64,000 nt of DNA from Escherichia phage vB_EcoM_ESCO50: sequence record OM386664.1, one strand, 5' to 3'. The notes under the pieces are model-generated. The model was not told where the DNA came from. It ran no database searches and saw only the letters and a program-made list of their open reading frames with translations. Below are positions 21,003 to 21,147 of this stretch, in pieces. A program made the translations under genes and the position numbers. The stretch's first letter is position 1, and the number at the start of each line of letters is the position of its first letter.

Positions 21003-21006
21003 TTCA

Positions 21007-21040
21007 TATCTCTCTCTCTCTCTCTCTCTCTCTCTCTCAA
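21007..21040. repeat. Dinucleotide microsatellite (TC)~16 on plus strand, (GA)n on the minus transcript, immediately 5' of the start codon of gene 20745-21002
   Basis: Uninterrupted CT repeat read from sequence; coordinates approximate. Confidence 0.85.
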
Positions 21041-21147
21041 TCTTTTCACAAATGTTTTAAGTTCTCCTTCAGTGACACCAATGGTTAAGTTTGTTCTGTA
21101 GAACATTGTAAAGTGGTCTTTACCGATAACCTACTTTACAACGAGAT

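What the first reader, a model, noticed from the sequence alone, without database searches (positions are those of the whole stretch)
21003..21045. (TC)16 dinucleotide microsatellite immediately upstream of a start codon
A perfect run of about 16 CT dinucleotides (GA repeats on the minus transcript) sits in the 5' untranslated region directly before the start of gene 20745-21002, which encodes a small protein with a highly basic C-terminus. Homopurine/homopyrimidine repeats are prone to polymerase slippage and can form triplex DNA, and their length could tune expression of the downstream gene. Such repeats are rare in phage genomes.
Basis: seen in the sequence. Interest (0 to 1): 0.5.

Follow-up and report, generated by a model that had tools for sequence, protein, structure and literature searches.

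The report
Expanded GA-repeat ribosome-binding site in phage
A perfect 30-base GA repeat in front of a small gene of unknown function in this Felix O1-like phage is an expanded copy of the short GA ribosome-binding site found in its relatives; the site changes length unusually fast between isolates, but the changes do not obviously switch the gene on or off.

Summary
The repeat is real. It is a perfect (TC)15, not 16, at 21009-21038, which reads (GA)15 on the coding minus strand. It ends 6 nt before the ATG (21002) of an 85-aa gene, the homolog of Felix O1 ORF123, whose function is unknown. The next-longest dinucleotide run in the window is 9 nt.

The window is a Felixounavirus. Relatives carry a GA tract at the same site, with the same roughly 6-nt spacing to the ATG, but with 3, 4 (the mode), 5, 6, 7, 8 or 11 units. 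The window's 15 is the longest allele found. The window and phage ESCO49 are identical over 280 nt on each side of the tract and differ only in the tract (15 vs 5 units). P219 and SPJ41 behave the same way (11 vs 7).

"(GA)3-4, then 5-7 nt, then ATG" is a common ribosome-binding-site form in this phage. Four other such tracts were checked in relatives. Three showed length changes of at most 2 nt, and one (nadV) is expanded in a single phage.

Best reading: this is a slippage-prone microsatellite that grew out of a weak GA-type Shine-Dalgarno element. It is tolerated because the unit nearest the ATG keeps its spacing and the leader stays unstructured. The tract also runs through a decayed remnant of the upstream gene ORF122, which causes inconsistent GenBank annotations.

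Tuning of expression and triplex DNA remain untested. Interest is moderate to low.

The parts
21009..21038 (-). (GA)15 tract, (TC)15 on the + strand. It is an expanded Shine-Dalgarno-type purine tract and a length-polymorphic microsatellite.
   Evidence: perfect, 15.0 copies; the orthologous tract has n=3-15 in relatives; pairing to the 16S 3' end is -5.0 to -5.3 kcal/mol.
21003..21008 (-). 6-nt spacer (TATGAA) between the tract and the start codon.
   Evidence: the spacer is 6 nt (range 5-7) in all 33 loci examined, whatever the tract length.
20745..21002 (-). 85-aa gene, the homolog of Felix O1 ORF123. It encodes a small protein with a basic C-terminus and unknown function.
   Evidence: ORF; phrog_4425, unknown function, E=1.7e-40; no significant Pfam, PDB or NCBIfam match; annotated as hypothetical in relatives.
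20969..21106 (-). 45-aa ORF that reads through the repeat as (RE)n. It is a decayed 3' remnant of ORF122 and probably not a functional gene.
   Evidence: ORF. Felix O1-type phages have the full gene, the window and wV8 type carry a 182-nt deletion, and the window clade has an extra TTTT->TTT frameshift that destroys the conserved G[IV]TxEELxxFCxK motif; weak SD (-3.0).
21148..21633 (-). nrdG (anaerobic ribonucleotide reductase activase), the upstream gene of the same strand block.
   Evidence: phrog_626, E=7e-67; annotations; no promoter-like or terminator-like site between nrdG and the tract.
20422..20742 (-). 106-aa gene (Pfam DUF7390, called 'HNH endonuclease' in several records). It starts 2 nt after the stop of the 85-aa gene, so it is probably co-translated with it.
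   Evidence: sequence ...AAATAATCATGG. DUF7390, E=1e-16. It is adjacent to the ORF123 homolog in every relative inspected.
20388..20410 (-). Terminator-like hairpin closing the nrdG / 85-aa gene / DUF7390 block.
   Evidence: 9-pair stem followed by a T run on the minus strand.

Best explanation
The tract is an expanded allele of a conserved GA-type ribosome-binding site. Felix O1-like phages often use GAGAGA(GA), 5-7 nt upstream of ATG, as a weak Shine-Dalgarno element. For the ORF123-family gene the ancestral and modal form is (GA)4. Four to five units are enough for replication slippage, and at this site slippage has repeatedly added whole GA units, up to 15 in this window. Units are added inside the tract, so the unit nearest the ATG always stays 6 nt from it. 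The added RNA is purine-only and cannot pair with itself. The start site therefore stays usable, and long alleles are tolerated as neutral or at most mildly modulating.

The site is freer to vary than other GA sites. The gene it serves lies in an accessory, mosaic region. In the variable lineages the tract is also no longer inside an intact reading frame, because the upstream gene ORF122 either stops before the tract or is a deletion remnant.

Shown: the repeat, its position, the polymorphism, the fixed spacing, the SD-like pairing, the recurrent use of the motif and the lack of RNA structure. Inferred: slippage as the mechanism, near-neutrality, and co-transcription with nrdG.
For: (1) Orthologous tracts with conserved flanks have n=3,4,5,6,7,8,11,15, always in whole units, with a 6-nt (5-7) spacer to the ATG.
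(2) Length changes faster than point substitution. Window (15) vs ESCO49 (5) and P219 (11) vs SPJ41 (7) each have 560/560 identical flanking bases.
(3) The expansions appear independent, because they occur in at least five different flank architectures.
(4) SD role. Tract-to-anti-SD duplex is -5.0 to -5.3 kcal/mol, against a median of -6.4 for 58 long ORFs and -0.4 at random positions. Ten of 20 minus-strand (GA)>=3 tracts in the window sit 5-11 nt (eight of them 5-7 nt) before the start of an ORF of at least 50 aa, including all four other tracts of at least 8 nt. The Mushroom and Moogle annotators marked ribosome-binding sites there.
(5) The leader is unstructured: MFE -10.3 vs -15.7 for shuffles, z=+2.0, and no covariation. 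Predicted start-site accessibility changes only from 0.51 (n=4) to 0.64 (n=15).
(6) Constraint pattern. Tract length is n=4 in 7/7 loci where an intact ORF122 reads through the tract. It is variable where ORF122 ends before the tract or is a remnant.
(7) The same process is seen at another GA ribosome-binding site: nadV, (GA)6 in phage radambza.
(8) No promoter-like or terminator-like site flanks the tract.
Against: No expression data exist for any allele, so near-neutrality is an assumption. Three control (GA)4 ribosome-binding sites (minor tail, rIIB and an 82-aa gene) show at most 2 nt of length change in 40-60 sampled genomes each. Slippage-proneness alone therefore does not explain why this site varies so much; relaxed constraint or selection must also contribute. 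n=4 also persists in many genomes where ORF122 is already a remnant (wV8, Mushroom), so the constraint argument is only partial. Tract lengths were read directly in 33 loci and inferred from alignment length in the rest. Variation within a single phage stock was not examined.
Confidence: 0.65

Rival explanations
1. Adaptive translational rheostat or contingency locus. Tract length sets how much of the 85-aa protein is made, and with it the DUF7390 protein that starts 2 nt after its stop. High slippage keeps a mix of expression states in the phage population, on which selection acts in different hosts.
For: The tract is the ribosome-binding site and is hypervariable relative to its flanks. It varies more than three other GA ribosome-binding sites. 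Longer tracts add SD-like registers and slightly raise predicted accessibility. The downstream gene starts 2 nt after the stop of the 85-aa gene.
Against: The spacing of the proximal SD unit does not change with n, and the predicted effects are small. n=4 is by far the modal allele and long alleles are rare singletons, which looks more like mutation and drift than a maintained polymorphism. The gene's function is unknown, so no selective agent can be named.
Confidence: 0.2
2. Three-state frame switch. Because the unit is 2 nt, n modulo 3 decides what happens to ribosomes reading the upstream ORF. They terminate 34 nt inside the 85-aa gene (n=15), terminate 1 nt before its ATG (n=4), or read through and make an N-terminally extended fusion protein (n=5).
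For: All three states occur in the window's own clade (window, ESCO45/56, ESCO49). ESCO49, ULIM8, JLBYU32 and P219 are annotated with extended ORFs. In the second allele group an ATG in the TAATG stop-start overlap is in frame with the gene for n=5, 8 and 11.
Against: In the window clade the upstream ORF is a 23-45-codon remnant of a deleted gene. It has a weak SD (-3.0), and its conserved C-terminal motif is already destroyed by a frameshift. The extensions are short, low-complexity (RE)n peptides that are not conserved. The ATGGGA start with the tract 6 nt upstream is the only feature conserved across all architectures.
Confidence: 0.07
3. DNA-level element. The 30-bp homopurine/homopyrimidine mirror repeat forms H-DNA (an intramolecular triplex) or a stable R-loop. 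This would impede transcription or replication, or stimulate recombination, in this mosaic region.
For: Only the sequence requirement is met: a perfect homopurine/homopyrimidine mirror repeat of 30 bp. The region is mosaic, with deletions and divergent cassettes.
Against: There is no direct evidence. Relatives function with 6-10-bp tracts that are too short for H-DNA, so this cannot be the conserved role. The divergent cassette boundaries do not coincide with the tract.
Confidence: 0.05
4. Sequencing or assembly artefact: the true tract in this phage is short.
For: Dinucleotide repeats are prone to PCR stutter and to long-read errors. No second assembly of this phage was found for comparison.
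Against: The tract is 22 extra bases of perfect repeat, in register with conserved flanks. Intermediate alleles of 6, 7, 8 and 11 units occur in independent records from different laboratories. Reads longer than 30 nt span such a tract.
Confidence: 0.03

Closest known systems
Simple-sequence-repeat contingency loci of bacteria (slipped-strand mispairing; for example the (TA)n tract in the hif fimbrial promoter spacer of Haemophilus influenzae and the tetranucleotide or poly-G tracts in Haemophilus, Neisseria and Campylobacter genes). From my own knowledge.
   Same: A perfect short tandem repeat sits next to a gene start and changes by whole units much faster than the surrounding sequence, with many alleles among close relatives.
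   Different: In those loci the repeat lies inside the coding frame or between the -35 and -10 promoter elements, so changes in unit number switch expression on and off. Here the repeat is upstream of the start codon and no promoter flanks it. The functional unit nearest the ATG keeps its spacing, so no switch of the main gene follows from the anatomy. Reversible switching within a clone was not shown.
Shine-Dalgarno ribosome-binding sites, including weak or non-canonical purine-rich variants.
   Same: It is a purine tract complementary to the 3' end of 16S rRNA (-5 kcal/mol). It lies 6 nt from the ATG, is conserved in position across divergent relatives, and is used for many genes of the same genome.
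   Different: A normal SD is 4-9 nt long. This one is 30 nt of overlapping weak GAG registers, most of them too far from the start codon to be productive.
Hypervariable poly-G tracts reported in Campylobacter phage genomes. From my own knowledge; the literature searches here returned only papers on host-side phase variation.
   Same: A simple repeat in the genome of a virulent phage that varies in length between and possibly within stocks.
   Different: Those are homopolymers inside coding sequences and shift the reading frame. This is a dinucleotide repeat in a ribosome-binding site. It affects the frame only of a decayed upstream ORF remnant.
Microsatellite surveys of phage genomes (for example mycobacteriophages, PMC6426759).
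   Same: They catalogue short repeats in phage genomes and treat them as slippage products.
   Different: Those surveys are statistical. They do not describe an orthologous ribosome-binding-site tract with an allelic series across a genus, as found here. I read only the abstract of that paper.

Membership tests
Microsatellite (simple sequence repeat) evolving by slippage | Perfect tandem array of a 1-6-nt unit, longer than chance allows | tested here: met
   (TC)15 with 100% matches. The next-longest dinucleotide run is 9 nt, and about 1e-12 such runs are expected by chance.
Microsatellite (simple sequence repeat) evolving by slippage | The orthologous locus differs between relatives by whole units, with conserved flanks | tested here: met
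   n=3,4,5,6,7,8,11,15. The alignment shows gaps only inside the tract. Flanks are identical while n differs.
Microsatellite (simple sequence repeat) evolving by slippage | Elevated length-mutation rate within a clonal population | not testable with these tools
   This needs sequencing reads or fragment analysis of single-plaque lineages.
Shine-Dalgarno ribosome-binding site | Complementarity to the 3' end of 16S rRNA | tested here: met
   Duplex energy is -5.0 (n=4) to -5.3 (n=15) kcal/mol. The genome median for long ORFs is -6.4 and random positions give -0.4. This is weak but within the range used by this phage.
Shine-Dalgarno ribosome-binding site | Located 5-9 nt upstream of a conserved start codon | tested here: met
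   The spacer is 6 nt in the window and 5-7 nt in all 33 loci.
Shine-Dalgarno ribosome-binding site | Demonstrated ribosome binding or dependence of translation on the element | not testable with these tools
   This needs toeprinting, reporter mutagenesis or ribosome profiling.
Phase-variable contingency locus (on/off by slipped-strand mispairing) | The repeat lies in the coding frame, or in the promoter spacer, of the gene it controls | tested here: not met
   The tract is upstream of the ATG of the 85-aa gene. No -35/-10 pair flanks it. SD-to-ATG spacing does not depend on n. It lies in a coding frame only for the decayed ORF122 remnant.
Phase-variable contingency locus (on/off by slipped-strand mispairing) | Reversible, high-frequency switching within a clone, with a phenotype | not testable with these tools
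   No reads, passaging data or phenotype are available.
-1 programmed ribosomal frameshift joining the upstream ORF to the 85-aa gene | Slippery heptamer X_XXY_YYZ in the zero frame of the upstream ORF | tested here: met
   T_TTA_AAT at 20984-20978(-) is in the frame of the 45-aa ORF, and its -1 frame is the 85-aa gene.
-1 programmed ribosomal frameshift joining the upstream ORF to the 85-aa gene | Stimulatory structure 5-9 nt downstream | tested here: inconclusive
   A 9-bp hairpin starts about 12 nt downstream, but the fold is not better than shuffles (z=-0.95).
-1 programmed ribosomal frameshift joining the upstream ORF to the 85-aa gene | The frame relationship of the two ORFs is conserved among relatives | tested here: not met
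   The upstream ORF ends before the tract in the second allele group and in ESCO45, Mushroom and JLBYU28. It is directly fused in ESCO49.
H-DNA (intramolecular triplex) forming sequence | Homopurine/homopyrimidine mirror repeat of roughly 15 bp or more | tested here: met
   30 bp of perfect (GA)n/(TC)n.
H-DNA (intramolecular triplex) forming sequence | Triplex formation under supercoiling, in vitro or in vivo | not testable with these tools
   This needs S1 nuclease or chemical probing.

The most novel reading that the evidence does not exclude
Felix O1-like virulent phages carry a true contingency-type locus. A hypermutable GA tract forms the ribosome-binding site of a conserved two-gene module (the 85-aa basic protein plus the DUF7390 protein). 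Its length acts as a heritable, quickly reversible dial on the module's translation, and through n modulo 3 on N-terminally extended isoforms. Each lysate would then be a mixture of expression states that is sorted by the host encountered.
Probability: 0.12. Interest if true: 0.6.

Novelty: new member of a known kind. Interest (0 to 1): 0.33.

Why it matters
If the ordinary reading holds, three things follow. First, this is a clean natural example of a microsatellite being born from a functional motif: a GA-type Shine-Dalgarno site expanding from 4 to 15 units. It comes with a ready-made allelic series for measuring how the length of a purine leader affects bacterial translation initiation. 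Second, it is a practical warning. Gene callers produce 85-, 98-, 110-, 113- and 118-aa versions of the same gene depending on tract length. Third, the tract is a fast-evolving marker that separates otherwise identical Felixounavirus isolates, some of which are used for typing and biocontrol. If tract length does tune expression, it would be one of very few repeat-driven variable loci described in virulent enterobacterial phages.

Tried and rejected
(1) RNA stem enclosing the tract. The MFE folds suggested that CCAUUGGUGUC pairs with GAUAUGAAAUGG and sequesters the AUG, with the tract in the loop. I rejected this. The region folds worse than shuffles (z=+2.04), and the 15-sequence consensus is only -4.4 kcal/mol with almost no covariation.

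(2) Promoter-spacer repeat. No sigma-70-like hexamer pair flanks the tract. The TATGAA after the tract abuts the ATG, so it cannot serve as a -10 element for this gene.

(3) -1 frameshifting at T_TTA_AAT. The heptamer is in frame, but the downstream fold is not significant and the ORF relationship is not conserved.

(4) Searches for other long alleles. Pattern scans of IMG/VR, JGI metagenomes (all 40 hits were unrelated sequences whose translations are full of stop codons) and GTDB genomes found only the n=8 contigs.

(5) Looking for this phage itself, to compare assemblies. No 100% match exists in the phage collection. The exact-protein look-up returned only ESCO45.

(6) Function of the 85-aa protein. 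PHROGs gives an unknown-function family. Pfam, PDB and NCBIfam give nothing significant. I ran no further search on it.

(7) Literature. Searches for Felixounavirus repeats, GA-repeat SD sites and phage phase variation returned nothing specific. The Felix O1 genome paper mentions longer direct repeats and places these genes in one long transcription unit, but does not mention this tract.

(8) A reading on the opposite strand. There is no plausible + strand gene here; all long ORFs in 19-24 kb are on the minus strand.

Full report
**Observation.** The window contains a perfect dinucleotide repeat at 21009-21038 (period 2, 15.0 copies, 100% matches). It is (TC)15 on the + strand and (GA)15 on the minus strand, which carries every long ORF between 19 and 24 kb. 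On the minus strand the region reads ...AAAAGATT(GA)15TATGAA-ATG-GGA..., where the ATG at 21002 starts the 85-aa ORF 20745-21002. The next-longest dinucleotide runs in the 64-kb window are 9 nt. A first-order Markov model expects about 1e-12 30-nt TC runs.

**Context.** The window is a Felixounavirus (Felix O1-like, Ounavirinae). 241 phage records match the region, and the closest are ESCO49, ESCO45 and ESCO56. The gene order on the minus strand is:
- nrdD (23842-21698)
- a terminator-like hairpin
- nrdG (21633-21148)
- the tract
- the 85-aa gene, which is the homolog of Felix O1 ORF123
- a 106-aa DUF7390 gene that starts 2 nt after the stop of the 85-aa gene (20742-20422)
- a terminator-like hairpin (20410-20388)

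No promoter-like or terminator-like site lies between nrdG and the tract, so the tract is most likely internal to a polycistronic mRNA; this is an inference. The Felix O1 genome paper places these genes in one long transcription unit and reports transcripts for all the ORFs it tested (PMC3185647). The 85-aa protein has no assignable function: it matches phrog_4425 "unknown" and gives no significant Pfam, PDB or NCBIfam hit.

**Comparison with relatives.** I read the orthologous site directly in 33 loci from GenBank phages and IMG/VR. Every locus has a GA tract followed by a 6-nt (5-7) spacer and ATGGGA. The unit numbers seen are:

| Units (n) | Where seen |
|---|---|
| 3 | one IMG/VR contig |
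| 4 | the mode: Felix O1, wV8, Mushroom, ESCO45/56, KhF1 and others |
| 5 | ESCO49, ULIM8, DE17, SSBS18, IMG/VR contigs |
| 6 | JLBYU32 |
| 7 | SPJ41 |
| 8 | two IMG/VR contigs |
| 11 | P219 |
| 15 | the window |

Alignment lengths in two larger tables agree with this picture. All 44 full-length matches to the window's allele group are 20-22 nt shorter than the window. In the second allele group, n=4 dominates, with a few 5, 6, 7 and 11. The length-based inference was correct in all six cases I checked by sequence. Pattern scans of IMG/VR, JGI metagenomes and GTDB genomes found no other allele of six or more units apart from the n=8 contigs. The window's allele is therefore the longest known.

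Two pairs show how fast the tract changes. The window and ESCO49 are identical at all 560 flanking positions (280 nt on each side) and differ only in the tract (15 vs 5 units). P219 and SPJ41 behave the same way (11 vs 7). The tract thus changes faster than one substitution per 560 nt.

**What the tract is.** The conserved core is a ribosome-binding site.
- (GA)n pairs with the 3' end of 16S rRNA at -5.0 to -5.3 kcal/mol. That is in the weaker part of the range for 58 long ORFs of this window (median -6.4) and far from random positions (median -0.4).
- The form "(GA)3-4, then 5-7 nt, then ATG" recurs in this phage. Ten of 20 minus-strand tracts precede the start of an ORF of at least 50 aa at 5-11 nt, eight of them at 5-7 nt. 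These include all four other tracts of at least 8 nt: the minor tail gene, an 82-aa gene, nadV and rIIB.
- Annotators of phages Mushroom and Moogle marked ribosome-binding sites at these positions.
- The leader has no significant RNA structure. The 126-nt region folds worse than its shuffles (z=+2.04). The consensus fold of 15 relatives is -4.4 kcal/mol with essentially no covariation.
- Lengthening the tract in silico changes the predicted unpaired probability of the start region only from 0.51 (n=4) to 0.64 (n=15).

**The upstream ORF.** The tract is not simply untranslated. A 45-aa ORF (21106-20969) reads through it as (Arg-Glu)n and ends 34 nt inside the 85-aa gene. Comparison shows that this ORF is the 3' remnant of a real gene, Felix O1 ORF122 (phrog_5082). 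That gene's C-terminal motif, G[IV]TxEELxxFCxK[ILV], is conserved between divergent allele groups.

Four main architectures exist:
- (A) A full ORF122 reads through the tract. n=4 in 7/7 loci.
- (B) A 182-nt deletion leaves a remnant of about 38 codons. This is the state in wV8 and the window, with n=4, 5 and 15.
- (C) A full ORF122 variant has its TAA stop directly before the tract. n=4, 5, 7 and 11.
- (D) A remnant is combined with the second allele group. n=4, 5, 6 and 8.

Two further forms were seen: ULIM8, with a larger deletion and n=5, and one contig whose TGA stop overlaps an n=3 tract. In the window's clade an extra TTTT->TTT deletion has already shifted the remnant's frame and destroyed the motif. 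Within that clade all three frame outcomes occur:
- a stop 1 nt before the ATG (ESCO45/56, n=4)
- an in-frame fusion (ESCO49, n=5, annotated as 113 aa)
- a stop 34 nt inside the 85-aa gene (window, n=15)

The remnant has a poor SD (-3.0). I regard it as a decaying pseudogene. The variation mainly explains why GenBank carries 85-, 98-, 110-, 113- and 118-aa versions of the same gene.

**Controls.** If GA ribosome-binding sites simply slip, other such sites should vary too. I checked four others.
- Minor tail gene site (36351-36358): no length change in 60 sampled records out of 215.
- 82-aa gene site (29616-29623): at most 2 nt of change in 40 sampled records out of 214.
- rIIB site (11641-11648): at most 2 nt of change in 40 sampled records out of 222.
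- nadV site (16444-16452): mostly constant, but expanded to (GA)6 in phage radambza.

Expansion is therefore a general but rare property of these sites, and the ORF123 site is clearly the most variable. The likeliest reasons are relaxed constraint, since the gene is accessory, lies in a mosaic region and the tract is often outside any intact frame, together with the self-accelerating nature of slippage once a tract exceeds about five units. Selection for variability cannot be excluded.

**Mechanism I commit to (confidence about 0.65).** The (GA)15 tract is a slippage-generated expansion of a conserved weak Shine-Dalgarno tract. It is tolerated because expansion leaves the proximal SD register at its 6-nt spacing and adds only unstructured purines. 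Its effect on translation of the 85-aa gene, and of the DUF7390 gene that starts 2 nt after its stop, is probably small.

Rivals, with my confidence in each:
- Adaptive rheostat or contingency locus: 0.2.
- Frame switch producing extended isoforms: 0.07.
- H-DNA or R-loop effect at the DNA level: 0.05. The sequence requirement is met, but nothing else can be tested here, and relatives have tracts too short for it.
- Assembly artefact: 0.03.
- -1 frameshifting at an in-frame T_TTA_AAT heptamer: essentially rejected, because the ORF relationship is not conserved and the downstream fold is not significant.

**Comparison with known systems.** The tract behaves like a bacterial simple-sequence contingency repeat in its mutability. 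It fails the defining positional feature of such loci, because it lies neither in the coding frame nor in the promoter spacer of the gene it precedes. It meets the testable criteria for a microsatellite and for a Shine-Dalgarno site. Tracts of (GA)>=15 are not unheard of in viral contigs. At least 120 stretches occur in IMG/VR, several of them on contigs of 0.7-2.5 Mb or named GVMAG, which I take to be giant viruses. I found no description of this locus or of repeat-length variation in Felixounavirus in the searchable literature.

**Verdict.** It is best filed as a new example of a known kind: a hypervariable microsatellite grown from a ribosome-binding site. Interest is moderate to low (0.33). 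It is useful as a strain marker, as an annotation caveat and as a natural allelic series for translation studies. It would rise in interest only if tract length proves to control expression.

Noticed in passing
window 16444-16452 (nadV ribosome-binding site); L194 (phage radambza): A second GA-type ribosome-binding-site tract, upstream of the nicotinamide phosphoribosyltransferase gene, is A(GA)4 in the window but is expanded to about (GA)6, with a GATA interruption, in phage radambza. GA-tract expansion is therefore not unique to the ORF123 site.
   Followed up: partly
window 20422-20742 (-): The 106-aa gene after the 85-aa gene is labelled 'HNH endonuclease' in several GenBank records. Here it matches only Pfam DUF7390 (1e-16) and an unknown-function PHROG, so the HNH label looks unsupported.
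   Followed up: partly
L001 1846-2187, L198 316-672, L069 349-681, L067 362-658: GenBank annotations of the same gene vary with tract length: 85, 98, 110, 113 and 118 aa. Gene callers extend the ORF through the GA tract into upstream remnants whenever the frame happens to be open.
   Followed up: yes
window 21039-21147 vs L021 (Felix O1) 990-1367: The window and wV8-type phages lack 182 nt of the gene between nrdG and the tract (Felix O1 ORF122, phrog_5082). Several independent deletion forms of this gene exist in the genus, and all of them keep its last 25-40 codons next to the tract.
   Followed up: partly
window 20745-21002 vs L014-L019, L067-L072: The ORF123 family has two sharply divergent alleles of the N-terminal half, MGLWNSFK... 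and MGILGNMK..., which align at about 60% identity. Their basic C-terminal halves are nearly identical (GKGGKKQAHRPSGAAAIKRAAKKARN.KRNKKAK). This is a mosaic cassette within one genus.
   Followed up: no
window 90-711: There is a cluster of 10-11-bp tandem repeats, for example GTTATAGAGC x4.3 at 669-711 (perfect) and several CTTTACA-containing units. It was not examined. KhF1's annotators call an 11-bp site between nrdG and the ORF123 homolog (L022 752-762) a 'direct repeat ... possible binding site of StbAB'; I did not read its sequence.
   Followed up: no
window 3368-3379: A T12 homopolymer, the only homopolymer run that passed the scan thresholds (at least 8 A/T or 7 C/G) in the window. It is another potential slippage site.
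   Followed up: no
window 18719-19141 (-) and 19119-19574 (-): Two adjacent, slightly overlapping ORFs of 140 and 151 aa share a C-terminal motif (F.G..(.)F....AVEHCK....K.KR..I.WE). They look like tandem paralogs.
   Followed up: no
window 21698-23842 (-) vs L002, L003: nrdD is uninterrupted here, and nrdG follows directly after a hairpin. Mushroom has a homing-endonuclease gene next to or within nrdD, and wV8 and Felix O1 carry four extra small ORFs between nrdD and nrdG. This shows high insertion and deletion turnover in the region.
   Followed up: no
window 42171-42381 and 43595-43642: Tandem repeats rich in GGTAAGG/GGTAG (periods 5, 20 and 25) lie in the right-hand part of the window. They were not examined.
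   Followed up: no
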